DNA from: Eledone cirrhosa
Lineage: Eukaryota
Assembly: GCA_964016885.1 (NCBI GenBank)
Contig: OZ024740.1
Coordinates: 141,856,001-141,920,000, forward strand
DNA length: 64,000 nucleotides
Direction: 5' to 3'
Shown here: in pieces, positions 12,363 through 63,900 of the stretch
How the letters are laid out: every line of letters begins with the position of its first letter
Numbering within the stretch: the first letter of the stretch is position 1
Translations under genes and position numbers: made by a program
Notes under the pieces: model-generated
Seen by the model: only the letters and a program-made list of their open reading frames with translations
Databases searched by the model: none
What the model was told of the DNA's origin: nothing

Positions 12363-15340
12363 TCGGTTGACATCCTAAAGATTCGGTTGACATCCTAAAT
12401 TTAGTGGAAGATGAGTTGAACAATGATAGTGGGAGACCTATGAACCTAAGATTTGTAGACAGGAAAAAGTTAAAAGAAACAACAGCTAAGGTAAACAAAG
12501 TCATCCCATACCTTGAGGCGAGGAGTCTTCACCAGTGCAACAATATCCTCAAAGCAACAGCAAATACGGTGAGGAAACTACTTGGTATAAAAGCGAGAGG
12601 AAACAACAGACAAGAAAGAGCAGAGCCGTGGTGGAAGAAGCGACTGAGTGGGCAAATCGGGGAAATGAGAAATGACATAGGAAAGCTTGAGTCACTACTG
12701 AATGGGACACTAAAAAACATAGGCACTAAAAATAGACTGGAAATAAAATACAAAACTAGGAGTAAAAAGCTAAATATTATCATAGAGGAATTGAAGCAAC
12801 GCATTGTAGCAAAGAGTGCCAAAATCAGGCGATACGAGAACAGAGTCAGTCAGTATAAACAGAACCGCATGTTCGACAACAACCAGAAGATGCTGTTTGG
12901 ACAGCTTGAGGGGAAAGAAAGAGGCAACGACTTGATCCCTGGGGCGGAACAAGCTAAAACATTCTGGAGAGGAATATGGGAGCAGGATGTTAGACACAAT
13001 GCCCAGGCAGGGTGGATTGAGACAGTACAGAGGGAGATCGGTGAGCAGGCACAGCAACAGACTGATTTGAGTATCACAGTTGAAACTCTTAAGGGGCAAG
13101 CCAAAAAACTAACCAACTGGAAATCACCAGGCCCAGATGGTGTGCAGGGGTATTGGATTAAACATTTAACATCCCTCCACCCGAAGCTGACGGCCATGTT
13201 CAATGACTGCTTGGTGTCGGGTGAGGTGCCAGAGTGGTTGACAAAAGGTACCACAGTTCTGATAATGAAAGACCGAATCAAGGGTAATGATGTTACCAAC
13301 TATAGACCTATCACATGTCTGCCCGTAATGTGGAAACTGTTGACGAGCATTGTGTCTGAGGAAATCTACCATCACCTCCACACAAACAACTTGTTGCCGG
13401 ACGAACAGAAAGGATGCCGAAAGAAGTCACGTGGTACAAAGGACCAGTTGCTTATTGATAAGATGGTAATGGGGAATTGCAGGAGGAGACACACTGATCT
13501 TGCCATGGGATGGATAGACTACAGAAAGGCATTTGACATGGTGCCTCATTCCTGGATCACCAAAAGCCTGGAGATCTTCAGGGTGGCAGATAACATCAGA
13601 CAGTTGCTGGGCAGGAGTATGGGGTCATGGGAGACAGAGTTGACATCAACTGGAGTATCCTTGGGAAGCGTGAAGATCAAGAGAGGTATCTTCCAGGGAG
13701 ATAGCCTGTCCCCTCTGTTGTTTGTCCTTGCCCTGATGCCCTTGACCATTATGCTGCGAAAAGTGAGAGCAGGATACAAGTTGGGAAGGGGAGAGCTTAC
13801 CATCAATCACCTCCTCTTCATGGACGATCTTAAGCTCTTCGGGAAAAGTGAGAAGGAGTTGGATGTGCTTGTTGACACTGTCCGTATTTTCAGCAGTGAT
13901 ATATGTATGCAGTTTGGTATTGGTAAATGTGGAGTCATTGTGATGAGGAGGGGTAGGTTGAGCAGAAGTAACGGGATCCAGATACCAACAGGTGAGATGA
14001 TAAAGGAAATTGACTCTGAGGAAGGATACAAGTATTTGTGCGTTCTGGAGGCTGATGGCATAAAGAACAAAAAAATGAAGGAATTGTTAAGAACTGAATA
14101 CATTCGGAGAGTAAGGAGCGTATTGAAGTCACATCTGAACAGCAGAAATGCCATAAGCGCAGTAAATTCCCGAGCTGTGTCTATTATTAGGTACAGTGCG
14201 GGAATTCTGAGATGGAATGTTGCTGAACAAAAAGAAATGGATAGGAAGACTAGGAAGCTATTGACTATCTACAACATGTTCCACAAGAGGAGTGATGTCG
14301 ATAGACTCTACCTAAGGAGATCTGAGGGTGGAAGAGGTCTTATCAGCATAGAGGACTGTGTTCAGATGGAGAAAAACAACCTATACAAATACGTGACCTA
14401 TAGTAAGGAGCCAATGCTCAGAGCTGTACTGAAGGAGGGGACAGTAGGCCAGGGGATATCCAAGGAGGAAATAACATCAAGGAGGAAGAGCAGCCTTAAG
14501 GGAAAATCCCTTCATAGTACCTTCTTTGAGAAAACTGAATTTAGAGATCCACAGACATGGAACTGGTTGAGAAGAGGAGACCTCAAAAAGGCTACAGAAG
14601 GAATGCTAATGGCTGCGCAGGAGCAGGCCCTCAAAACGAAGTGGTTGAAGCACCATATCTACAAGGAGGAGGCTAGCCCACTGTGCAGGATCTGTGGAGA
14701 GAGAGAGGAGACTGTGGCTCACATTGTGTCCGAGTGTAAACACCTAGCCCAGACCCACTATAAGGGCTGGAGACACGATGTGATGGGCAGGGTGATCCAC
14801 TGGCACCTGTGCAAAGTAAACAATCTACCACATTCTGAGAAATGGTATGAGCATAGGCCAGAGGCGGTGATGGAGAACAGTCAGGTGAAGGTGCTGTGGG
14901 ATTTTAGGATACAGACGGACAAAAAACTGGAACACAATAGACCTGACCTGGTGGTTGTGGACAAAGAAAAAAGATCGTGCCTGATTGTGGATGTGGCCTG
15001 CCCGTTCGACACGAGAGTGCAAGAGAAGGAGAGGGAGAAAATTAACCGATACCAGGACCTAAAGTGGGAGGTGAAAAGGATTTGGAACTGCCATGAAGTC
15101 AAAGTGATCCCGATTGTCATAGGCGCACTGGGGACTATCTCCAAAGGTTTCCAGGGATGGTTAAAGAAAATCGGCCCCTTCACGCTTTTTGGAACGCTTC
15201 AAAAGGCATGCTTGCTTGGAACGGCAAGAACCCTCCGATACGTCCTGAATATCTGAGGCTGCAGGTAGTGGCTTGATATTCAATCTAACGGACTTTCCAG
15301 TTAACCAACATCAATGACTGAGATTCAAGGAATAACAATA
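12361..15340 (+). mobile_element. 5'-truncated RLE LINE family A (R4/Dong-like), young copy
   Basis: Uninterrupted 950-aa ORF and short 3'UTR; (TAA)n on both sides. Confidence 0.95.
12404..15256 (+). CDS. Non-LTR polyprotein: RT + CCHC zinc knuckle + restriction-like endonuclease (N-terminus probably missing)
   Basis: KSPGPDG, NYRPITCL, IDYRKAFDMV, GIFQGDSLSP, LFMDD, CRICGEREETVAHIVSEC, RHD, RPDLVVVD..IVDVACP..K..RY. Confidence 0.93.
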   Translation: MEDELNNDSGRPMNLRFVDRKKLKETTAKVNKVIPYLEARSLHQCNNILKATANTVRKLLGIKARGNNRQERAEPWWKKRLSGQIGEMRNDIGKLESLLNGTLKNIGTKNRLEIKYKTRSKKLNIIIEELKQRIVAKSAKIRRYENRVSQYKQNRMFDNNQKMLFGQLEGKERGNDLIPGAEQAKTFWRGIWEQDVRHNAQAGWIETVQREIGEQAQQQTDLSITVETLKGQAKKLTNWKSPGPDGVQGYWIKHLTSLHPKLTAMFNDCLVSGEVPEWLTKGTTVLIMKDRIKGNDVTNYRPITCLPVMWKLLTSIVSEEIYHHLHTNNLLPDEQKGCRKKSRGTKDQLLIDKMVMGNCRRRHTDLAMGWIDYRKAFDMVPHSWITKSLEIFRVADNIRQLLGRSMGSWETELTSTGVSLGSVKIKRGIFQGDSLSPLLFVLALMPLTIMLRKVRAGYKLGRGELTINHLLFMDDLKLFGKSEKELDVLVDTVRIFSSDICMQFGIGKCGVIVMRRGRLSRSNGIQIPTGEMIKEIDSEEGYKYLCVLEADGIKNKKMKELLRTEYIRRVRSVLKSHLNSRNAISAVNSRAVSIIRYSAGILRWNVAEQKEMDRKTRKLLTIYNMFHKRSDVDRLYLRRSEGGRGLISIEDCVQMEKNNLYKYVTYSKEPMLRAVLKEGTVGQGISKEEITSRRKSSLKGKSLHSTFFEKTEFRDPQTWNWLRRGDLKKATEGMLMAAQEQALKTKWLKHHIYKEEASPLCRICGEREETVAHIVSECKHLAQTHYKGWRHDVMGRVIHWHLCKVNNLPHSEKWYEHRPEAVMENSQVKVLWDFRIQTDKKLEHNRPDLVVVDKEKRSCLIVDVACPFDTRVQEKEREKINRYQDLKWEVKRIWNCHEVKVIPIVIGALGTISKGFQGWLKKIGPFTLFGTLQKACLLGTARTLRYVLNI

Positions 15341-22439: not shown

Positions 22440-24490
22440 ATCATCCTCATCATCATCATCATCCTCATCCTCCTCCTCCTCATCATCCTCATCATCATCC
22501 TCATCCTCATCCTCATCCTCATCATCATCCTCATCATCATCATCCTCATTATTATTATTACATGTTTTTCACCCGAAAGCAGGTGACATTGACAGGAATT
22601 CATATTTTATCATCATCATTATTGACATCATCACCACTACCATCGTCATCATCAGTTTCAGCTTCCCCATCATCATATCATCATAAACCCCTACACTTCT
22701 TTCACTACCATCATCATTATAACTCCCACCACTACCACCACCACCACCACCACCACCACCACCACCACCACCACCACCACCACCACCACCACCACCACCA
22801 CCACCACCACCACCACCACCACCACCACCACCACCACCTCCACCACCACCACCACCACCACCACCACCAACACCACCACCACCACCACCACCACCACCAC
22901 CACCACCACCACCACCACCACCACCACCACCACCACCACCACCACCACCTCCACCACCACCACCACCACCAACATTACCACCATTAGCACCAACACCAAC
23001 ACCTACCACCACCTCCAACACCACCACCACCTCCAACACCACCACCACCTCCAACACCACCACCACCTCCAACACCAACATTACCACCAACATTACCACC
23101 ATTAGCACCAACACCAACACCTACCACCACCTCCAACACCACCACCACCTCCAACACCACCACCACCTCCAACACCACCACCACCTCCAACACCAACATT
23201 ACCACCATTAGCACCAACACCAACACCTACCACCACCACCACCTCCAACACCACCACCACCTCCAACACCACCTCCAACACCACCACCACCTCCAACACC
23301 AACATTACCACCATTAGCACCAACACCAACACCTACCACCACCACCACCTCCAACACCACCACCACCTCCAACACCACCTCCAACACCACCACCACCTCC
23401 AACACCAACATTACCACCATTAGCACCAACACCAACACCTACCACCAACACCACCTCCAACACCACCACCACCTCCAACACCAACATTACCACCATTAGC
23501 ACCTCCAACACCAACATTACCACCATTAGCACCAACACCAACACCTACCACCACCACCACCACCTCCAACACCACCACCACCTCCAACACCACCACCACC
23601 ACCACCACCACTCCAACACCACCACCACCTCCAACACCAACATTACCACCATTAGCACCAACACCAACACCTACCACCACCACCTCCAACACCACCACCA
23701 CCTCCAACACCACCTCCAACACCACCACCACCGCCAACACCAACATTACCACCATTAGCACCAACACCAACACCTACCACCACCACCACCTCCAACACCA
23801 ACATTACCACCATTAGCACCAACACCAACACCTACCACCACCACCACCTCCAACACCACCTCCAACACCACCACCACCTCCAACACCAACATTACCACCA
23901 TTAGCACCAACACCAACACCTACCACCACCACCACCTCCAACACCAACATTACCACCATTAGCACCAACACCAACACCTACCACCACCACCACCACCTCC
24001 AACACCGCCACCACCTCCAACACTATCACCATTACCAACACAACCACCAGCAATACCACGACCACTACTACCACCACCACCACCACCACCACCTCCAACA
24101 CTACCACCATTACCAACACGACCACCAGCACTACCACGACCACTACTACTACCACCACCACCACCACCACCACCATTACCACCACCACCAGCAGTACCAC
24201 CACCACCACCACCACCAGCTCTACCACTACCACCACCACCTTCAGCAGTACCAGCACCACCACCATCAGCTCTACCACCACCACCACCACCACCACCAGC
24301 AGTACCACCACCACCACCAGCTCTACCACCACCACCAGCAGTACCACCACCACCACCACCACCACCAGCAGTACCACCACCACCACCACCACCTCTACCA
24401 CCACCACCACCACCACCAGCAATACCACCACCACCACCGCCATCACCACCAGCAGTACCACCACCACCACCACCACCAGCAGTACCACCA
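22440..24490. repeat. (CAT/CCT)n, (CCA)n and a CCA-derived ~106-bp minisatellite (~22970-23990)
   Basis: Landmark CCACCATTAGCACCAACACCAACACCTACC recurs about 11 times, several at exact 106-nt spacing. Confidence 0.9.
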
Positions 24491-24523
24491 TCTACACACA
24501 ATTGTCTGTGTGAGATAAGGTAC

Positions 24524-24571
24524 CTGACCATAGTCTTGTATGTCTGTGACAGCCTTCGCCACTTTCCAGAG
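24524..24571 (-). CDS. Candidate 48-nt host exon (LWKVAKAVTDIQDYGQ)
   Basis: ttttcag|CTC...CAG|gtacct; phase 0-0, compatible with 17579-17759; unique island between simple repeats. Confidence 0.25.
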
Positions 24572-24897
24572 CTGAAAATCGAATTTTTTTAACTGCAGCA
24601 GATAAAATTAAAATCACTTTGTTGTAGCCATGACAACCACAGCAGCTCCACATTCTCTGAGACAGCCTGGCGTTATTTCTCTGTGATGATAGAGAAGTAT
24701 TGGTTGGCGATGTTCATAGTGATGGTGGTGGTGGTGCTGGTTGTAGTGGAGGTTGTAGTTATAGTGGTGCTGGGCTGTTGTGTTGGTGGTTGTAGTAGCG
24801 GTGTTTGTAGTTATAGTGATGCAGGATTGTAGTGTTGGTGGTCATGATAGTGATGGATGTAGTTATGGTGCTAGTTGTCCTGGGCTTTACTACTAGT

Positions 24898-25460
24898 GGT
24901 TGTGGTGCTATTGTGGTTGCAGTTATAGTGGTACTGGGCTGTAGTGTAGGTGGTTGTGGTGGTTGTGGTGCTATTGTGGTTGCAGTTATAGTGGTACTGG
25001 GCTGTAGTGTAGGTGGTTGTGGTGGTTGTGGTGCTATTGTGGTTGCAGTTATAGTGGTACTGGGCTGTAGTGTAGGTGGTTGTGGTGGTTGTGGTGCTAT
25101 TGTGGTTGCAGTTATAGTGGTACTGGGCTGTAGTGTAGGTGGTTGTGGTGGTTGTGGTGGTGCTATTGTGGTTGTAGTTAAGGTTATAGTGGTACTGGGC
25201 TGCAGTGTAGGTGGTTGTGGTGGTGGCTGCAGTTGTAGTTAAGCTTATAGTGGTACTGGGCTGTAGTGTACGTGGTTGTGCTGGTGCTATTGTGGTTGTA
25301 TTTAAGGTTATAGTGGTACTGAGCTGTAGTGTGGGTGTTTGTGGTGGTGGTGTTGGTGGTTGTAGTTGTGGTACTAGTTGTACTGGGCTGTAGTGTAGGT
25401 AGTTGTGGTGGTGGTGGTTGTAGTTGTGGTGCTAGCTGTACTGGAATGTAGTGTTGATGG
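24898..25460. repeat. 63-bp GGT/GTA-rich minisatellite (4 near-perfect copies, then decaying)
   Basis: TGTGGTGCTATTGTGGTTGCAGTTATAGTGGTACTGGGCTGTAGTGTAGG at 24901, 24964, 25027 and 25090. Confidence 0.9.
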
Positions 25461-26138
25461 TTGTGGTGGCTGTAGTTGTAGTTATAGTACTAGTGATACT
25501 GAGTGTAGGGTCTTGTCGTAGTGTTTTGATGGTAAGGGAGTTGGAGTTGTATTGGTGGTGGTTGTGGTAGTGGTGATGTGTGATGTTGTGGTAGAGGCTA
25601 TGGTGATAGCAGTGTTGTTGGTTGTAGTAGTGGAATTGAATATCGTTATGGGAGTGGCTATAGTGATAGTAAAATTGTTTGGACTATAGTGTTGGTAGTT
25701 TTAATAGTATTTAGTTTAGTTGTAGTGATTGTAGCGGTTGTTGTGATAGTGGTACTGAATTACAGTATTGGGGGTTATAGCAGCGATTTTAATTGTTGTG
25801 GTTGTGGTGATATGGAGACAGTTTGAGCTATAACGATAGCGATTCTCGCGGCAACGGTGTTATGTATTATTGTAGTGGTGATTATGCTGATTGTAGTATT
25901 GGCAGTTATGTTAGTGGTGTTGAGTATTTTTGTAGTGGCTACTATGATGAGAGTAGTGTTGGTAGTTGTGTTAGTGGTGTTGAGTATTGTTGTGGTGGTG
26001 GCTGCCGTCATATTGAGAGAGTGTGGGGGTGTAGAGTTAGTGGCAGTAGTTTTACTAAAAGCAAAGGTTGAAGTGACGGCTGTTGTTAACGTAGTAGTAA
26101 CATCTGTAATACACGTTAATATTCTGTAATCCCAGGAC

Positions 26139-26300
26139 AAGGCGGTGAAATGCTAGAGTCATTAGAATGTGGGATAGAATGCTTTGCAGCATTGGTTCCG
26201 ACTGTCTATGTTCTCATTTCAAATCATGCCGAGGTCAACTTTGCTTTTCATCATTTCGAAGTCAATTACCAGGCCTGAACTAGAGTCGACACCCCTTCTC
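26139..26300 (+). mobile_element. Degraded SINE
   Basis: AAGGCGGTGA...TTCAAATC..GCCGAGGTCAACTTTGCTTTTCATC resembles a common cephalopod SINE (recognition). Confidence 0.55.
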
Positions 26301-26867
26301 TCTCTTTCTCTTTCTCCGTCTCTCACTCTCTCTCTTTCTGGAAGATATCGACTGTTTAGACATAGAAAGTGATGGGCTCGCCGGGTTTATATGCCCGAGA
26401 AGCGCCGTATATCACAACTGCGCTCCCACTACTCTACCAGCAGTTCAGGTTCCATGGATGGTCCATGTAACACTAGGTCAAACCTAATAGAATGTTGTTA
26501 GTGGAACAGATGACGAAGTAGATTTCAGAGATCCATCTTCCCAGATATAACATTTCTCCAACTAGCTTAAGTATATCCTGCCATACTGCAGAATCAAACG
26601 TTACCTGTCTTATGATAAACAAGTAAGTTTCGGAGTACACGTTTACCATTATGGGCAGCAGTATGTAAATAAATAAAAAATACCTTATATATATAGGTGT
26701 GTGTGTGTGCATGTAGATTACCGAGTTGTGACGGGGGCAATCACAGTTAAAAAAGGCAGACATTCCTGGTGATTTCATACGAATAGAACAGTTCTAGTCA
26801 TGTAGAAGTCATTTCTGTATATATATATATATATTATTATTATGTAATAAACAACATAAGGCAATTA

Positions 26868-26927
26868 TTCCATTTACCAGTGGTTTCTTAAAAGCAAAAG
26901 GTTTTGCTTTCAATCCTCAGAATGAAA
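26868..26927 (-). ncRNA. Type I hammerhead ribozyme (mirror copy in E3)
   Basis: Exact reverse complement of 27001-27060. Confidence 0.8.
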
Positions 26928-27000
26928 AATCCTGGTTTGTTTATTGAATATGGATTCTAAAAACTTTTTAGAATCCATATTCAATAAACAAACCAGGATT

Positions 27001-27060
27001 TTTCATTCTGAGGATTGAAAGCAAAACCTTTTGCTTTTAAGAAACCACTGGTAAATGGAA
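27001..27060 (+). ncRNA. Type I hammerhead ribozyme
   Basis: TTTCATT-CTGAGGA-[TTGAAAGCAAAA cc TTTTGCTTTTAA]-GAAA-CC act GG-TA^-AATGGAA: 7-bp helix I, intact CUGANGA/GAAA core, GUA site (predicted cut after 27053). Confidence 0.85.
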
Positions 27061-27187
27061 TAATTGCCTTATGTTGTTTATTACATAATAATAATAATTA
27101 AGCTCTGTTGCCTACATAGAGCACTCTTTTTTCCTGGACTTTTCCGATGGAATTACTTCATTCACACACATATATATATATATATAT

Positions 27188-28593
27188 GTATTGAAATTTC
27201 CGTTGAAAACAGAAAAGGTCATAGAAGTGAAGAGTGCTCTATGTAATAACCAGAGCAAAATTTTATGTATAAAAATCAATACAATATAATTACCTCATTA
27301 CCAGAGGTTTCCCGAATGAGGCGAATTCGAAAGAAACGTCTTCATTCGTTCGTCAGACGAGGCAATATAAAACATGGCTAAATACTTGGAAAGTCTCATC
27401 AAGAAAAGCCAAAAAAATTATATAAATATAGACAAAGGAATTACAATAGCCATATGAAATATATAAAAATCTTTCAAGAAATATAGTTAGGTGTGTGTAT
27501 ATGTATGTATATACGCTCACAGATGTACATATGTGTGTATGTACAAATGTGTACGTATAGTGAAAAAGTGTGCGTAAATATATGTGTTAGGGCGGTGTAT
27601 CTGTGTATCTGCAACTACAGACAGACATGATGTGGTTGTCTGTTTAGCAGGTACACAGAAAAAACGGGGTATTAGATACATTATAAGAATATGAAGGCAC
27701 GCGTATCAACACACCCACACGCACGTACACTTATATGCGGAAGTAAAAGAGGTAAGGGAGTGTAATAATTAAAAGAAAGTATCATTCTCGATATATTTAT
27801 AAAAATGGAACAATAATTTAGAAAGAAAAAATTAAAGAAAAGAAGACAAACAAGGTACACGCGTACACACACACGTATATCTACAAGAAACGTATATCTA
27901 TAAGAAATATATATATATATACACGCAAAAACGTGCAGACAAAAGCGTATGCAAGCACACATACACACATAGGATGCACATATATACGCATATACGCCTC
28001 GCCCCATGTATATCTAATCACGCGCACGCACGCGACTGTATACACACTCGCACACACACACACACGCAAAAATATACATGCTTATATACATACGCACACT
28101 TACACATCCATACTTTCGGTACGTACACACACACACACACACACATACATACACTCACGCATATTGACCTGTTTACATGCACACACATAAAAATGAGGAT
28201 GTAAAAAAAGAGAAAAAACAAAACAAAAACAAAAAACATAGATGTAAAAACACAGATATAAAGACACATATACATACACATATATATATATATACACGCA
28301 CGCGCGCGCACATACGGCGGCGTTCGTGTACATATATAGAATGTATACACACATTAAGGCGTTCAGACACATAGATACAGGGTGTAAAAAGCTTTGTGGA
28401 TAAGTAAGTACAAATATAAAATTATAAGATTGGCTGCGAAATAACAAAAAATATCTGGAGTGGAAAACGCAAGTGACTTTGGTAATCAGTTAGTGAAGAA
28501 AATAAGGAAGTAAAAAGTGGAAAGTGAAGGTATTCGCCTCATTCGGGAAACCTCTGATAATGAGGTAATTATATTGTATTGATTTTTATACAT
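27188..28593 (-). mobile_element. Hairpin+tail element E4: 62-bp inverted arms (27265-27326 / 28532-28593), 1.2-kb interior, ~77-nt tail
   Basis: Arms differ by 1 nt; tail (27188-27264) is homologous to the E3 tail in opposite orientation; (TA)n flanks. Confidence 0.75.
27289..27366 (-). ncRNA. Type I hammerhead ribozyme (E4)
   Basis: Minus: ATTGCCTCGT-CTGACGA-a[CGAATGA...TCATTCG]g-GAAA-CC tct GG-TA^-ATGAGGTAAT; 10-bp helix I; first helix II pair is an A.G mismatch. Confidence 0.8.
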
Positions 28594-28606
28594 TATATAT
28601 ATATAT

Positions 28607-28800
28607 ATAGGAACGAGTAGGACCCCGACGGCTGAGCTCAAGCCGTTTGGACGGCTAATTCGGGTCCAGAATTAGCTGTCGAAACGGCTTGAGCTCAGCC
28701 GTCGGGGTCCTACTCGTTCCTATTACCCACTCTACTACCCTAAGTATTGAGTACTTTGGTGCGTTATGGTCCACCTGGTTCCTTACCACATTTCTTCCGT
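28607..28800 (+). mobile_element. Hairpin+tail element E5: 117-bp palindrome with the 3' half of a hammerhead + ~77-nt tail
   Basis: 28607-28723 is palindromic. Right arm reads [helix II]-GAAA-CGGCT tgagctc AGCCG-TC^-GGGGTCC. Tail GAGTACTTT at 28749-28757; (TA)n on both sides. Confidence 0.8.
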
Positions 28801-28877
28801 TATATATATATATATATATATATAAAAGAATAGAGACACATTCCTACTGACCGATCCCTCTACCACGAATTACTCTG

Positions 28878-28918
<41 letters not shown>

Positions 28919-29016
28919 TCTTAATAGGCATCTGAACTGTTGACCTGTCAACAAACTGCAATTCACACACACATCCCTACTGACCATTATCACAACAATG
29001 AACCTCTTTACTACTA

Positions 29017-29050
<34 letters not shown>

Positions 29051-29079
29051 TTGTCTTGAAAGACTTATTTTTCAGTGAC

Positions 29080-29340
29080 TTCTCAATCAGCCGAGACAAA
29101 CCTACATTTGGCGCAAAATCAATTTTTAACATTCACATGACCTCTACCGACCAATCAAAATTGTTTTGACCACAAGAATTTTTGCAACACGAATTGGCGC
29201 GAAACTTATTTTAATACATCTGGAGCCACTTTTTTCACATAAAAAAGGTAGAATTTCCAAAACTAATCAGATTAGAGCAAACATCACGGGCGCTCTATCT
29301 CAAAATTATTTTTGAAAAGCATTAGAAATGCGCAACCGGT
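29080..29340. promoter_or_regulatory. Candidate promoter (E2F-like sites, CCAAT box, CHR-like motif)
   Basis: TTTGGCGC 29107-29114, CCAAT 29151-29155, TTGGCGCGAAA 29194-29204 and TTTGAA 29311-29316 in a non-repetitive island. Confidence 0.35.
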
Positions 29341-29490
29341 AAAAACTTAAAACCAAAACTGAATACTAACCAATACTATTACTAATTTTTACTTATTCCT
29401 AATTAAACTATTTTTCACTGGGAAAAATTTGTCAGCATTTTCTTTTCCTTTTACCAATATATATATATATATATATATGTATATGTGTGT

Positions 29491-29564
<74 letters not shown>

Positions 29565-29731
29565 AATAACCCCCCCCCCCAAAAAAATATATATAAATGT
29601 ACTACGTCTGCATTTGGATAAAAAGGTTCACAATATAATGTTCATATTGGACAACTATAAATTATATGAGGAGAGCACAGCGATTTGAGAACAAATAAAG
29701 AAAAAAATATAGAAAAGAAATATATATTTTC

Positions 29732-55772: not shown

Positions 55773-58544
55773 TCCTTGAATCTCAGTCATTGATGTTAGT
55801 TAACTGGAAAGTCCGTTGGAATGAATATCAATGCACTATATGGAATGAATATCAATGCACTACCTGCAGCCTCAGATATTCAGGACGTATCGGAGGGTTC
55901 TTGCTGTTCCCAGCAAGCATGCCTTTTGAAGCGTTCCAAAAAGCGTGAAGGGGCCGATTTTCTTTAACCATCCCTGGAAACTTTTGGAGATAGTCCCCAG
56001 TGCGCCTATGACAATCGGGATCACTTTGACTTCATGGCAGTTCCAAATCCTTTTTACCTCCCACTTTAAGTCCTGGTATCGGTTAATTTTATCCCTCTCC
56101 TTCTCTTGCACTCTCGTGTCGAATGGGCAGGCCACATCCACAATCAGACACGATCTTTTTTCTTTGTCCACAACCACCAGGTCAGGTCTATTGTGTTCCA
56201 GTTTCTTGTCCGTCTGTATCCTAAAATCCCACAGCACCTTCACCTGATCGTTCTCCATCACCGCCTCTGGCTTATGCTCATACCATTTCTCAGAATGTGG
56301 TAAATTGTTTACTTTGCACAGGTGCCAGTGGATCACCCTGCCCATCACATCATGTCTCCAGCCCTTATAGTGGGTCTGGGCTAGGTGTTTACACTCGGAT
56401 ACAATGTGAGCCACAGTCTCCTCTCTCTATCCACAGATCCTGCACAGTGGGCTAGCCTCCTCCTTGTAAATATGGTGTTTCAACCACTTCGTTTTGAGGG
56501 CCTGCTCCTGCGCAGCCATTAACATTCCTTCTGTAGCCTTTTTAAGGTCTCCTCTTCTCAACCACTTCCATGTCTGTGGATCTCTAAATTCAGGTTTCTC
56601 AAAGAAGGTACTATGAAGGGATTTTTCCTGAAGGCTGCTCGTTCTCCTTGATGTTATTTCCTCCTTGGACATCCCCTGGCCTATTGTCCCCTCCTTCAGT
56701 ACAGTTCTGAGCATTGGCTCCTTACTATCAGTCACGTATTTGTGTAGGTTGTTTTTCTCCATCTGAACACAGTCCTCTATGCTGATAAGACCTCTTCCAC
56801 CCTCAGATCTCCTTAGGTAGAGTCTATCGACATCACTCCTCTTGTGGAACATGTTGTAGATAGTCAATAGCTTCCTAGTCTTCCTATTCATTTCTTTTTG
56901 TTCAGCAACATTCCATCTCAGAATTCCCGCACTGTACCTAATAATAGACACTGCGCTTATGGCATTTCTGCTGTTCAGATGTGACTTCAATACGTTCCTT
57001 ATTCTCCGAATGTATTCAGTTCTTAATAATTCCTTCATTTTTTTGTTCTTGATGCCATCAGCCTCCAGAACGCCCAAATACTTGTATCCTTCCTCAGAGT
57101 TAATTTCCTTTATCATCTCACCTGTTGGTATCTGGATTCCGTTACTTCTGCTCAACCTACCCCTCCTCATCACAATGACTCCACACTTACTAATACCAAA
57201 CTGCATACATATATCACTGCTGAAAATACGGACAGTGTCAACAAGCACATCCAACTCCTTCTCACTCTTCCCGAAGAGCTTAAGATCGTCCATGAAGAGG
57301 AGGTGATTGATGGTAAGCCCTCCCTTTCCCAACCTGTATCCTGCTCTCACTTTTCGCAGTACACTGGTCAAGGACAAACAACAGAGGGGACAGGCTATCT
57401 CCCTGGAAGATACCTCTCTTGATCTTCACGCTTCCCAAGGATTCTCTAGTTGATGTCAACTCTGTTTCCCAGGACCTCATACTCTTGCCCAACAACTGTC
57501 TGATGTTATCTGCCACCTTGAAGATCTCCAGGCTTTTGGTGATCCAAGAATGAGGCACCATGTCAAATGCCTTTCTGTAGTCTATCCATCCCATGGCAAG
57601 ATCAGTGTGTCTCCTCCTGCAGTTCCCCATTACCATCTTATCAATAAGTAACTGGTCCTTTGTACCACGTGACTTCTTTCGGCATCCTTTCTGTTCGTCC
57701 GGTAACAAGTTGTTTGTGTGGAGGTGATGGTAGATTTCCTCAGACATAATGCTTGTCAACAGTTTCCACATTACGGACAGACATGTGATAGGTCTATAGT
57801 TGGTAACATCATTACCCTTGATTCGGTCTTTCATTATCAGAACTGTGGTACCTTTTGTCAACCACTCTGGTACCTCACCTGACATCAAACAGTGATTGAA
57901 CATGGTTGTCAGTTTCGGGTGGAGGGATGTTACATTTTTAATCCAATACCCCTGCACGCCATCTGGGCCTGGTGATTTCCAGTTGGTTAGTTTTTTGGCC
58001 TGCCCCTTGAGAGTTTCAACTGTGATACTCAAATCAGTTTGTTGGTGTGCCTGTTCACTAATCTCCTTTTGTACTGTCTCAATCCACACTGCCTGGTCAT
58101 TATGTTTAACATCCTTCACCCATATTCCTCTCCAGAATGTCTTAGTTTGTTCCGCCTCAAGGATCAAGTCGTTGCCTCTTTCTTTCCCTTCAAGCTGTCC
58201 AAACAACATCTTCTGGTTGTTGTCAAACATGCGGTTCTGTCTATACTGACTGACTCTGCTCTCGTATCGCCTAATTGTTGCACTCTTTGCTACAATGCGT
58301 TGCTTCAGTTCCTCTATGATAATATTTAGCCTTTTCCTCCTAGTTTTGTACATTATTTCCAGTCTATTTTTAGTGTCTATGTTTTTTAGTGTCCCATTCA
58401 GTAGGGACACAAGCTTTCCAATGTCATTTCTCATTTCCCTGATTTGACCATTCAGCCGTTTCTTCCACCAAGGTTCTGATCTTTCTTGTTTGTTGTTTCC
58501 TCTCGCTTTTATGCCAAGTAATTTCCTCACCGCATTTGCTGTTG

Positions 58545-58546
<2 letters not shown>
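55773..58546 (-). mobile_element. 5'-truncated RLE family-A LINE, disrupted ORF
   Basis: ORFs 57280-58530, 56427-57377 and 55872-56414 are homologous to 12404-15256; (TTA)n on both sides. Confidence 0.95.
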
Positions 58547-60931: not shown

Positions 60932-63900
60932 ATGACCTCACTCAGAATAGGCAGCATAAATGCTCGTGGCTTGGGGTCGTCATGGAACAGGATCACCTGC
61001 TCAACGACCTCAGGTCATTAAACATAGATGTAGTGGCCATCAGCGAGACCAGAATCTCCGAAGCACGGGCCTTGGCACCGATCTTCGGCGGCTGCGATGT
61101 GTACGCATCTCCCAGCCGTCCTGGATCGGGGGAAGAGTTGCTGTGCTTTTTCGGAGAGGTTTGGATCTCGCCATACGGGCCATCTTCCTGGACCCAGAGG
61201 GTAAGTAGGTGGTGCTGGACGTGACCAACGGAGACGGGCAAGCTTTCAGGCTAGTGGCCGTCTATGCCCCGACAGGAGCAGGGCGGCCTGATTTCTTCTG
61301 GCGACTGGAGACCTTTCTTGGAACGTCCCGCTCTTTAGTGTTAGTGGGCGACTGGAACGGGATCTTAGATGCACCCTGGGACTGTGTGGGATTAGCGGAT
61401 AGGGGTGGAGGGTGCAAGAGCCTCACCAACCTGCTCAGGCGTTTTGAACTGTCTGACAGGTACCGATTGGATTTCCCGAATGTGCCAATGTGGACTTGGA
61501 CAAATCGCATAGGGTCATCCAGATCATATCTAGATAGAGTATTTTGTAGGGAAATATATAGGTCTAGCATAGGCTGTCCACAATTCAAGATAGTCAGCTA
61601 CACTGACCACAAATTCGTAATCTGTGTGCTTGACTTAGATAGGCTTCATAGACGAGGACCCGGCTACTGGAAGCTAAACGCCTCCTTACCAGCGCGCAAG
61701 GCATACAGAGACCGGATTAGCGAACTAGTTAAGCGAGCGTTGACGGGGGCCATCGTCAACAACAAGTGGTGGTTTGCTCTGAAAAGAGCGGTTAGAATAG
61801 AATCCATTAGGTTTAGTAAGGCTTTAGCAATAGAGAAAAATAGAGCAGAGGGAGAACTAGTTAGAAAATTAGACGAGGCGCTTAGCAAAGGCATCGCGAC
61901 CGACGTGCTTGCGGCGAAATTGGCCCTTGACCAATTCTTCAATGCAAAGCACGAAGGCTGCGTTGTCAGAGCTAGGGTGCGTGCTCTCAGACACGAGGAG
62001 ACGAAAGCCGTTCAATGGGCCCGAGTGGCGGAGGCGCGTCGTGGCAACAAAGCCACGATCCGGTCTTTGGTGGACCACGACGGGCGCATGCTACTCGATC
62101 CCGGGCAAATGTGTGACGCTTTTCAGCGACACTTCACTCAGCTGTGCGGGGGCAGCGGTGGGCCAGGTCGAGGGATGGACTTTAGTGTCTACCTCGACGG
62201 ACTGCCGCGGCTCTCGGCCACTGAGGCGGAGTGTTGCGAAAAGCCGATAACAGCCGCTGAAGTAAGGGAGGCAATGACTGGCTGCAGAAGGGGTAAATCG
62301 CCTGGTTTGGATGGTCTGCCCTATGAACTTTACGTACAGATGCCAGACTTGTTCGGAGGCCTCTTGGCGGACGTCTACTGCAACTGGCAACAGAAGGTGA
62401 GAATTCCCAGTTCTGTGAGCCGAGGAGCGGTGGCACTGCTGAGAAAGGATCCGAACAAGGGGGATAACATAGATAATTTCAGGCCCATAACTCTGCTAAA
62501 CACAGAGTTCAAGATTTTGGCCAAGGTGCTAGCAAAGAGGTTGGCCCTTGTCGTTGGTGGTCTGGTGGGAGAGGCGCAGACATGCGCCATTCCCGACAGA
62601 TCCATCCACGACAACCTCCACCTCATGCGATACATCGTAGAGAGGGTAGCTAGGGAACGTGGCACGGGTGGGTCCTTGATTAATTTAGATCAGTCGAAAG
62701 CTTTCGATAGGGTCGACCATCGTTACCTAGCGGCAGTCCTGAGGGCGGCTGGCTTTGGGCCCGTCTTCAGAGGCTAGATCGCTGCCATGCACAGCGACAT
62801 CTGCTCTGTGGTGAGAGTGAACGGTCACCTGTCGGAACCGTTCAACATCATGCGCTCGGTCCGCCAAGGATGTCCCCTCTCGTCCCTCTTGTACGTATTG
62901 ACTCTCGAGCCGTTACTGCACAAACAGGAGACGTTGAGGGGCATCCCGTGCGAACTAGGATGCAGAAGATCCGTGTCAGCATATGCGGACGATGTCACCG
63001 TAGTGGTGTCGAACGCCAAACACATCGAGGCGATCGGCACTACACTAAGAGAATACGAAGCGGTGACAGGAGCAATGATCAACCAGGAAAAGTCAGTGGG
63101 CCTGCAGCTCGGCACCTGGAGAGGCAGATCCATGCCGTCCAACAGCGTCGTCGGACGCTGGACGGACGTACCGGTTAAATTGCTAGGGGTCTGGTTCGGT
63201 CCGGACCTCCAGACGGACAAAAACTGGGACGAGGTGACGAGCAGGGTGGCTTCTCTCACCCAGGAATGGGAGGCTTTTTGTGGAAGGGACGCGCTCCGAT
63301 GGTCAGGCGGTCCATCTGTTGTCAACACCCGCTACGTGGAGGGCTGGGCATGCCGTGGCTGATGATGCGCAGGCACGCGCTCAGGCTACGACATCTCCAC
63401 CTCTTCCTCGACGGTGATCAGGTGTGATCGCCGTTTGCTAGACACGTATTTCCCCAGCTCGTTTCCTTGACGGAGCTGCAGTCCTGGGTCAAGCGAAGAC
63501 CGAGAGGGAGCGCCTGGAGACTGGAATGTCTTCAGGCGCTCACAGCCCTCGACCAATCGGGCAATGTGATCGGTGGAAACTCCACCTCGGCGTTCTATAG
63601 AGGATTAGTGGAGGGGAAGAGCGACGACGTACTTGGGGAAACTCTAGGCGTCGACGAAAATCAACTAGCCAATCTCTTCGGAAGAACTTTCGGGCCAGGG
63701 CCTATGGACAACTTCCAGAAATCTCTGGCCTGGCAGTGCTACCGAGGAGCCTTGCCAGTTCGGGATAAACTCTACAGGCATGGAGGTGCCGTCAGCCGGG
63801 CATGTCCGAGATGCCCGCAGGGCGACGAAACCGTCCTGCACGCACTCGTCCAGTGTCCGAAAATTGCTGACTTGTAGGTTTATGTCGAACACCTGCTGTC

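What the first reader, a model, noticed from the sequence alone, without database searches (positions are those of the whole stretch)
26832..27096. Perfect palindrome placing an intact hammerhead motif on each strand
Seen: 132-bp arms with no mismatches and a 1-nt loop; hammerheads at 27001-27060 (+) and 26868-26927 (-) point outward. Helix III segment ACCACTGGT is almost self-complementary. Known: minimal PLE hammerheads cleave best as dimers via palindromic helix III. Inference: a very recent insertion. Read-through RNA from either strand would form a 132-bp duplex competing with ribozyme folding and could be an ADAR or Dicer substrate.
Basis: partly seen in the sequence, partly recalled or inferred. 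Interest (0 to 1): 0.8.

Follow-up and report, generated by a model that had tools for sequence, protein, structure and literature searches.

The report
Head-to-head Penelope retroelement ends
The palindrome is two head-to-head copies of the end of a common Penelope-like retrotransposon, which is a known arrangement, but an extra G at the join in many sister copies likely marks the capped start of an RNA that was copied twice.

Summary
The perfect palindrome (132-bp arms, 1-nt centre) and both hammerhead motifs are real. It is not a one-off. It is a solo pseudo-LTR insertion of a young, high-copy Hydra-like Penelope element in a (TA)n tract: a direct arm with a 64-nt tail and an inverted arm without it. 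Thirty loci in this genome fold back at the same point. Inverted 5' copies, one-sided tails, (TA)n targets, quasi-palindromic helix III and a hammerhead on each strand are all published for this clade (PMC8557442).

The new lead is mechanistic. Copies that start at the palindrome centre carry a non-templated G (53 places against 5 with A). This suggests the centre is the capped 5' end of a sense RNA and the arms are two separate cDNAs joined head to head. The published alternative is self-priming on an antisense template.

In read-through RNA the hairpin is predicted to beat the ribozyme fold by 90 kcal/mol. Cleavage, editing and siRNA production are untested. The exact centre of this locus was not recovered in four sequencing runs.

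The parts
26818..26831 (.). Left (TA)n target tract; the boundary with the arm is ambiguous by a few bases and no target-site duplication can be read
   Evidence: sequence; TA or CA runs follow the tail in 26 of 30 tail-query loci
26832..26964 (-). Inverted, tail-less pseudo-LTR arm, element positions +133 back to +1; the centre C is the complement of the element's +1 G
26868..26927 (-). Type I hammerhead motif in the inverted arm, predicted cut at 26875
26964..26965 (.). Head-to-head junction at element position +1/+2, the inferred RNA 5' end; this copy itself has no extra G
   Evidence: 30 loci join here; extra G in 53 places against A in 5
26965..27096 (+). Direct pseudo-LTR arm, element positions +2 to +133
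   Evidence: 100% identical over 136 nt at 40 of 40 scored places, one being this copy
27001..27060 (+). Type I hammerhead motif with quasi-palindromic helix III, predicted cut after 27053
27051..27056 (+). 5' splice donor inside hammerhead helix III, two bases before the predicted cut
   Evidence: one contig of run X4 leaves the element at the mirror of 27051 and enters a host exon after an AG, 4.6 kb from a sister copy on C15
27097..27160 (+). 64-nt tail present on the direct arm only, with a hairpin shared with the neighbouring family
27161..27188 (.). Variable CA/TA run, right side of the target tract

Best explanation
The palindrome is a short, 5'-truncated insertion of a Hydra-like Penelope retrotransposon made of two head-to-head copies of its pseudo-LTR, likely formed when both nicked strands of a (TA)n tract primed reverse transcription on the element's capped, unspliced sense RNA and the two cDNAs were joined where they ran off its 5' end. 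Shown: identity of the arm, parent ORF, (TA)n target, fixed outer ends at +133 and +197, pile-up of inner ends at +1, and the extra G in sister copies. Inferred: +1 is the transcription start and the G is the copied cap; +133 and +197 are two reverse-transcription start sites; each arm is its own cDNA. The hammerhead on each strand is a passenger of the duplication. The template was evidently not cut at +90, since the copies run through the site. In read-through RNA the hairpin is predicted to suppress the ribozyme.
For: Arm found at 100% identity in 40 of 40 scored places of 1168 candidates. It precedes a 710-aa ORF and recurs 4.1-4.3 kb downstream. The ORF has RWK, DKT, YRDD, CxCX5C, CxxC and CxH, the Hydra signature of PMC8557442 section 11. 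In 34 of 34 short two-arm loci one arm ends at +197 and the other at +133 to +137 (3 single-arm rows of 37 dropped). Thirty loci join at +1 with varied centres, reversed-pattern control 0; by my hand count 21 of the 30 have an extra G on at least one arm. Intact copies have T or C before +1 in 100 of 100 listed of 395 places. G stands there in 53 places and A in 5. All 30 fetched G-start places lack the intact upstream sequence. In 6 loci the tail-less arm reaches +1 with the extra G while the tailed arm is shorter inside, so neither arm is a plain copy of the other. Two internal start sites that define the tail, and cleavage and extension of both target strands, were shown in vitro for a Poseidon element (PMC11167929). 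An extra G marks full-length L1 5' ends (PMC11702581).
Against: This copy has no extra G; its arms end at +1 and +2. No 5'-end RNA data were available, so cap and start site are inferred. In the third family inner ends also pile up (71 of 82 arms at -7 to +3), but G is not clearly preferred (8 of 15 at offset 0, 7 of 17 at +1). Later deletion at a palindrome centre could mimic the 6 asymmetric loci. The one-sided tail is not absolute: the large inverted locus L031-L032 and family-3 locus L074 have tails at both ends. The A control is the only one possible, since T and C are templated. Pfam does not recognise the ORF directly. The centre of this locus was not seen.
Confidence: 0.68

Rival explanations
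1. Same element, but the palindrome arises by self-priming: one nucleic acid (a first cDNA, or an antisense template as proposed for rotifer Penelopes) folds back and is copied, and the endonuclease resolves the far end at +133.
For: This is the published reading of head-to-head Penelope palindromes (PMC3846280 Discussion). Arms share subfamily variants in L098, L116 and L118. Short local fold-backs occur at some centres, e.g. L010 and L130.
Against: An antisense template gives no reason for an extra sense-strand G at +1 (53 against 5 places). A 1-nt centre cannot be a hairpin loop without slippage. In 6 loci each arm holds sequence the other lacks. Shared variants are also expected of two RNAs from one source locus.
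Confidence: 0.2
2. The palindromic unit is itself a mobile non-autonomous element (MITE-like or retrozyme-like) that spreads as a unit, with a ribozyme on each strand for its own processing.
For: Terminal inverted repeats in TA tracts look like a MITE. Three loci share an identical centre string and a few other centres recur in pairs.
Against: Most of the 30 centres differ. The ends are asymmetric. The arm is part of a retroelement with an ORF. There is no tandem array as in retrozymes. The hairpin is predicted to block the ribozyme.
Confidence: 0.05
3. This particular palindrome is a read fold-back or assembly artefact.
For: No contig or read crossed 26965-26967 in four runs, although the left flank is present at depth about 12 in X1 and X3.
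Against: An artefact would not stop at the family's +133 site and rejoin a TA tract. The same anatomy with different centres occurs at 30 loci. Raw Illumina reads of a separate study hold fold-back joints of this family (7 reads, 3 starts, joint 26929-26999). The tool warns that a hole proves nothing, and those runs may be of individuals without the insertion.
Confidence: 0.04
4. The locus is a host-selected regulatory hairpin or ribozyme switch (siRNA or ADAR source).
For: A 132-bp perfect duplex would form. siRNAs map to inverted regions of Penelope in transformed Drosophila (PMC3681739). A sister copy is spliced to a host exon.
Against: The copy is identical to dispersed siblings, so no selection is shown. 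I recognised no host gene nearby: ORFs at 22500-29700 are simple-repeat frames, and of 8 longer ORFs scanned 4 are reverse transcriptases and 4 have no Pfam match.
Confidence: 0.03

Closest known systems
Hydra clade of Penelope-like elements, closest by eye Hydra-1_Obim (Craig et al. 2021, PMC8557442; abstract, passages, sections 10 and 11, supplement passages and part 2 read)
   Same: C-terminal-endonuclease ORF with RWK, DKT, CxCX5C, CxxC and CxH; (TA)n target; hammerhead with a 4+1+4 quasi-palindromic helix III (Hydra-1_oBim has acca-a-tggt, this one acca-c-tggt); Penelope-13_HM is listed with an inverted 5' copy and a hammerhead on each strand.
   Different: The unit is 4.1-4.3 kb rather than the usual under 3 kb, because of a 1.7-kb microsatellite-rich 3' region holding a second hammerhead with a GUG triplet. 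The tail is 64 nt, not 30-40. Helix I and II sequences differ from Hydra-1_oBim. No percent identity or tree against the published families was computed.
Penelope/Poseidon PAc of Anolis (Frangieh et al. 2024, PMC11167929; parts 1 and 2 of 4 read)
   Same: AT-rich target, two fixed 3' ends separated by a tail, uncleaved RNA as template.
   Different: There the start sites lie 111-118 nt inside the ORF and the hammerhead overlaps the start codon. Here both ends lie upstream of the ATG (+317), inside a predicted 119-nt intron (+88 to +206).
Adineta vaga Penelopes with palindromes at the inverted junction (Arkhipova et al. 2013, PMC3846280; abstract start and 8 passages read)
   Same: Head-to-head inverted pseudo-LTRs, optional tail, solo repeats.
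   Different: Explained there by self-priming on an antisense template, with an unspliced sense template not excluded. The extra G here points to a capped sense template.
Minimal and dimer-type hammerheads of metazoan Penelope-like elements (Cervera and de la Pena 2014, PMC4209133; parts 1 and 2 of 4 read)
   Same: Type I topology, long helix II, weak palindromic helix III; dual motifs on opposite strands 100-700 bp apart were already noted in Schistosoma.
   Different: This motif lacks the G10.1-C11.1 pair they found highly conserved, and its helix III overlaps a splice donor.
L1 twin priming and cap-derived extra G (PMC11702581; passages read)
   Same: Second priming from the other target end; extra G at complete 5' ends; end-joining with microhomology or filler.
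   Different: L1 twin priming inverts non-overlapping parts of one RNA. Here both arms copy the same 133 nt from fixed start sites.

Membership tests
Endonuclease-containing Penelope-like element | Single ORF with reverse transcriptase and GIY-YIG endonuclease | tested here: met
   710-aa ORF with YRDD at 346 and SVVY/YVG at 573/594. Pfam finds nothing in it directly. Of 25 aligned sequences 4 match RVT_1 and 1 GIY-YIG. Atlas neighbours at 0.96-0.99 carry HTH_animal, GIY-YIG and RVT_1. Support is by motifs and relatives; the structure job did not finish.
Endonuclease-containing Penelope-like element | Pseudo-LTRs from partial tandem copies, direct or inverted | tested here: met
   The arm precedes the ORF and recurs 4.1-4.3 kb downstream; large and small inverted copies.
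Endonuclease-containing Penelope-like element | [quoted passage not shown] | tested here: met
   34 of 34 short two-arm loci; 64 nt; two exceptions among other loci.
Endonuclease-containing Penelope-like element | Transcription start and 5' UTR intron inside the pseudo-LTR | tested here: inconclusive
   Start inferred from the extra G. Donor use seen in one contig of a run whose kind is not on record. Own acceptor only predicted, shared as YAG-CTCC by three families.
Hydra clade | RWK, DKT instead of DKG, CxCX5C linker, CxxC and CxH, no CCHH finger | tested here: met
   RWK 37, DKT 114, CxCX5C 555, CxxC 658, CxH 689; DKG and CX2-5CxxC absent; no cysteine between the two halves of the GIY-YIG-like motif.
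Hydra clade | (TA)n target and canonical hammerhead | tested here: met
   26 of 30 tail ends run into TA or CA tracts, the other 4 into the element body; hammerhead.
Hydra clade | Placement in the Hydra clade on a reverse transcriptase tree | not tested
   Only a by-eye comparison with Hydra-1_Obim.
Type I hammerhead ribozyme | CUGANGA and GAAA core, NUH triplet, three helices | tested here: met
   Across 39 variants helix I changes keep pairing (neighbouring family has a different 7-bp helix) and N7 takes all four bases. The search required the core and at least 6 of 7 helix I pairs, so invariance of these is built in.
Type I hammerhead ribozyme | G10.1-C11.1 closing pair (typical, not universal) | tested here: not met
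   U and A flank helix II. Many published Hydra hammerheads also have an extra base on each side. Rfam hammerhead models give no match.
Type I hammerhead ribozyme | Site-specific self-cleavage | not testable with these tools
   Needs an in vitro assay.
Non-LTR retrozyme | Tandem units each with a hammerhead, no coding parent in the unit | tested here: not met
   Inverted, not tandem; no such array at the locus.
MITE | Symmetric terminal inverted repeats and a constant interior across copies | tested here: not met
   Ends asymmetric and centres variable.

The most novel reading that the evidence does not exclude
These palindromes are double strong-stop products that record the Penelope mechanism in the genome: both target strands prime on capped, unspliced sense RNA at two start sites inside the 5' UTR intron, and the cDNAs join at the cap. 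This would explain head-to-head palindromes, the one-sided tail and intron retention in this family at once, without an antisense template. The hammerhead cut site overlaps the intron's donor, so splicing, self-cleavage and reverse transcription would compete for the same few bases. Each such insertion could act as a two-way first exon.
Probability: 0.5. Interest if true: 0.68.

Novelty: new member of a known kind. Interest (0 to 1): 0.38.

Why it matters
As a single feature it is ordinary: one of at least 30 near-identical palindromes of a known class. Its value is as a sample. How Penelope-like elements make inverted repeats and keep their introns is named as open in PMC3846280 and PMC8557442. 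This family offers a sharp genomic signature (fixed ends at +1, +133, +197 and a G-specific extra base) and an intact young ORF, which make the question directly testable by 5'-end mapping and an in vitro reaction. It also shows that the same pseudo-LTR can be spliced to a host exon.

Tried and rejected
Rfam at gathering threshold: nothing; at E<=10 only generic hairpin families below their thresholds, rejected as hairpin matches. Pfam and PDB sequence searches on the parent ORF: nothing significant (the profile gave two retron-type RT chains at E about 0.4). Structure prediction was submitted but never finished. Sequencing runs: no RNA holder listed; this is no evidence on expression. The exact centre was not seen in X1, X2, X4 or X10. 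My first BLAST mapping dropped low-complexity segments and was replaced. The local aligner over-extended inner ends for L178, L193, L194 and L199; I read those. I first took L123 for a full-length copy starting at the G; one search showed it is a short partial tandem with two G starts. The idea that the centre is a splice acceptor was rejected because the copies retain the T-rich AG. The idea that it is the ribozyme cut was rejected because that site is at +90. The neighbouring 27102-27258 inverted match looked like a MITE but is the tails of two related families facing each other. Earlier scan findings: none. Literature searches for a cap or twin-priming reading of Penelope inverted junctions listed no paper that, from listing or passages read, states it; subscription papers such as the original Penelope promoter and structure papers are not in the library, and I saw only parts of one supplement.

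Full report
Observation. The palindrome is as described: arms 26832-26963 and 26965-27096, no mismatch, one C between them. Each arm holds a type I hammerhead motif reading away from the centre, with GUA at the predicted cut after 27053. My descriptor found these two and none in 200 shuffles of the window. Rfam does not recognise them.

What it is. The right arm matched 40 of 40 scored places in G000 at 100% over 136 nt, one being this copy, out of 1168 first-look candidates. In longer copies it sits just upstream of a 710-aa ORF and again 4.1-4.3 kb downstream, so it is a pseudo-LTR. The ORF has YRDD, a C-terminal SVVY/YVG pair, RWK, DKT, CxCX5C, CxxC and CxH, and lacks DKG and CX2-5CxxC. That is the description of the Hydra clade of Penelope-like elements (PMC8557442 section 11), and by eye it is collinear with Hydra-1_Obim. 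Domain support from libraries is weak: no direct Pfam match, RVT_1 in 4 and GIY-YIG in 1 of 25 aligned sequences, Atlas neighbours with those families.

Anatomy. Numbering the G that mirrors window 26964 as +1, the direct arm runs +2 to +197 (to about 27160) and the inverted arm +1 to +133, both ending in TA runs. Among 37 distinct short loci examined, 34 have two arms, and in all 34 one ends at +197 and the other at +133 to +137. These loci were chosen for having inverted arms or a G start, so this is not a frequency. In a sample fetched with the tail alone, 6 of 30 loci have an inverted arm within 350 nt, and 4 of 30 begin at +1 or +2 (L098, L116, L118, L123). Tails at both ends occur in L031-L032 and L074. 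An inverted 5'-truncated copy and a one-sided tail are the published anatomy (PMC8557442 Fig. 2 legend). The same paper's File S2 lists 4+1+4 quasi-palindromic helix III in most Hydra hammerheads and a hammerhead on each strand for Penelope-13_HM.

The centre. A pattern for a fold-back at this point gave 30 loci, including this one, with a reversed control of 0. The centres vary. By my hand count 21 of 30 carry an extra G before +1 on at least one arm; this copy is among the 9 that do not. Intact copies have T or C there in all 100 listed of 395 places. G stands there in 53 places (some are two arms of one insertion) and A in 5, one being this locus. All 30 fetched G-start places lack the intact upstream sequence: 27 abut an inverted copy and 3 a TA-rich flank. 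An extra G at complete 5' ends is read as the copied mRNA cap in L1 (PMC11702581), and the start site lies in the pseudo-LTR in Penelope and Chlamys-3. I infer that +1 is the capped start of the RNA. The third family in this window shows a similar pile-up (71 of 82 arms within 11 nt) but no clean G preference, so the replicate is only partial.

Mechanism. In vitro, a Poseidon protein nicks and extends both strands of AT-rich DNA and starts at two internal sites that bound the tail, using uncleaved RNA (PMC11167929). Applied here: both target ends prime, one at +197 and one at +133, both cDNAs run to the 5' end, and they are joined bluntly, by microhomology or through a few added bases. In six loci the tail-less arm has the G start while the tailed arm is shorter inside, which a single fold-back does not give unless the centre was later deleted. 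The published alternative is self-priming on an antisense template, with a sense template left open (PMC3846280). I put 0.68 on the two-cDNA model and 0.2 on self-priming. The identity of the element is much more certain than either.

Ribozyme and splicing. Helix III is weak as a monomer (pair probability 0.12). A swapped dimer is calculated at -31.2 against -22.2 kcal/mol for two monomers, in line with dimer-type motifs, whose activity in vitro was low (PMC4209133). The inverted layout cannot supply the partner in cis. For a read-through RNA the hairpin is -207.5 kcal/mol and forcing the hammerhead costs 90. RNAs starting at the centre would carry one arm only and form no hairpin. The cut site (+90) lies two bases into a splice donor (+88). 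One contig of run X4 leaves the element exactly there and continues into a host exon that follows an AG on C15, 4589 nt from a same-strand sister copy. The run's kind is not on record and this is one contig of another copy. A matching acceptor at +206 is predicted and shared by three families. Both fixed 3' ends lie inside that predicted intron, so only unspliced RNA could be copied.

Artefact, age, context. The centre of this locus was not recovered in three contig sets and one RAD read set, while the left flank was. Fold-back joints of the family at another point occur in raw Illumina reads of a separate study (7 reads, 3 starts). The insertion is young by identity to dispersed copies; the arms alone bound divergence below about 2.2%. 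I recognised no host gene nearby, so read-through, editing and siRNA production are unshown, though siRNAs from Penelope inverted repeats have precedent (PMC3681739 passages).

Verdict. A new member of a known kind, interest 0.38. The cap-at-the-centre signature is the part worth following. My searches did not list a paper stating it, but the library lacks most subscription papers.

Noticed in passing
window 27189-28598: A second, related Penelope-like family on the minus strand shares the same TA tract: tailed end at 27189, hammerhead at about 27289-27360, and a tail-less inverted piece at 28532-28598. 2136 first-look candidates in G000.
   Followed up: partly
window 28607-28800: A third family with the same anatomy: 58-nt inverted arms plus a one-sided tail of about 77 nt in a TA tract. 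17 of 30 tail-query loci have a close inverted arm. No hammerhead core was seen in the part present and its parent ORF was not sought.
   Followed up: partly
L205:4998-5203 and L202 (G000 C15:42162450-42167202): A sister pseudo-LTR is spliced from the donor in helix III to a host exon with an ATG in one contig of run X4. The exon's product resembles a small heat-shock protein by recall; Pfam gave no match on the 100-aa piece.
   Followed up: partly
L035:6040-6100: The full element carries a second hammerhead in its 3' region, about 83% identical, with GUG at the cleavage triplet, which breaks the NUH rule (recalled) but keeps the GT donor.
   Followed up: partly
L203:4885-5385: A partial tandem whose two units both start with the extra G, suggesting template jumping at the RNA 5' end.
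   Followed up: partly
window 27041 (run X4): Another X4 contig enters the arm right after a pyrimidine-rich AG at the end of helix II, which may be use of a splice acceptor inside the hammerhead.
   Followed up: no
window 29854-51500: About 21 kb array of a 30-nt satellite with strong strand skew and open frames of up to 6992 codons, probably open only because the unit lacks stops.
   Followed up: no
window 12371-15256, 56427-58545, 61209-62777: LINE-type reverse transcriptase ORFs, one with an endonuclease/exonuclease/phosphatase match below the Pfam cut-off.
   Followed up: no
L203:8395-9912: An ORF of a further Hydra-like family with the same reverse transcriptase motifs by eye, on the minus strand.
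   Followed up: no
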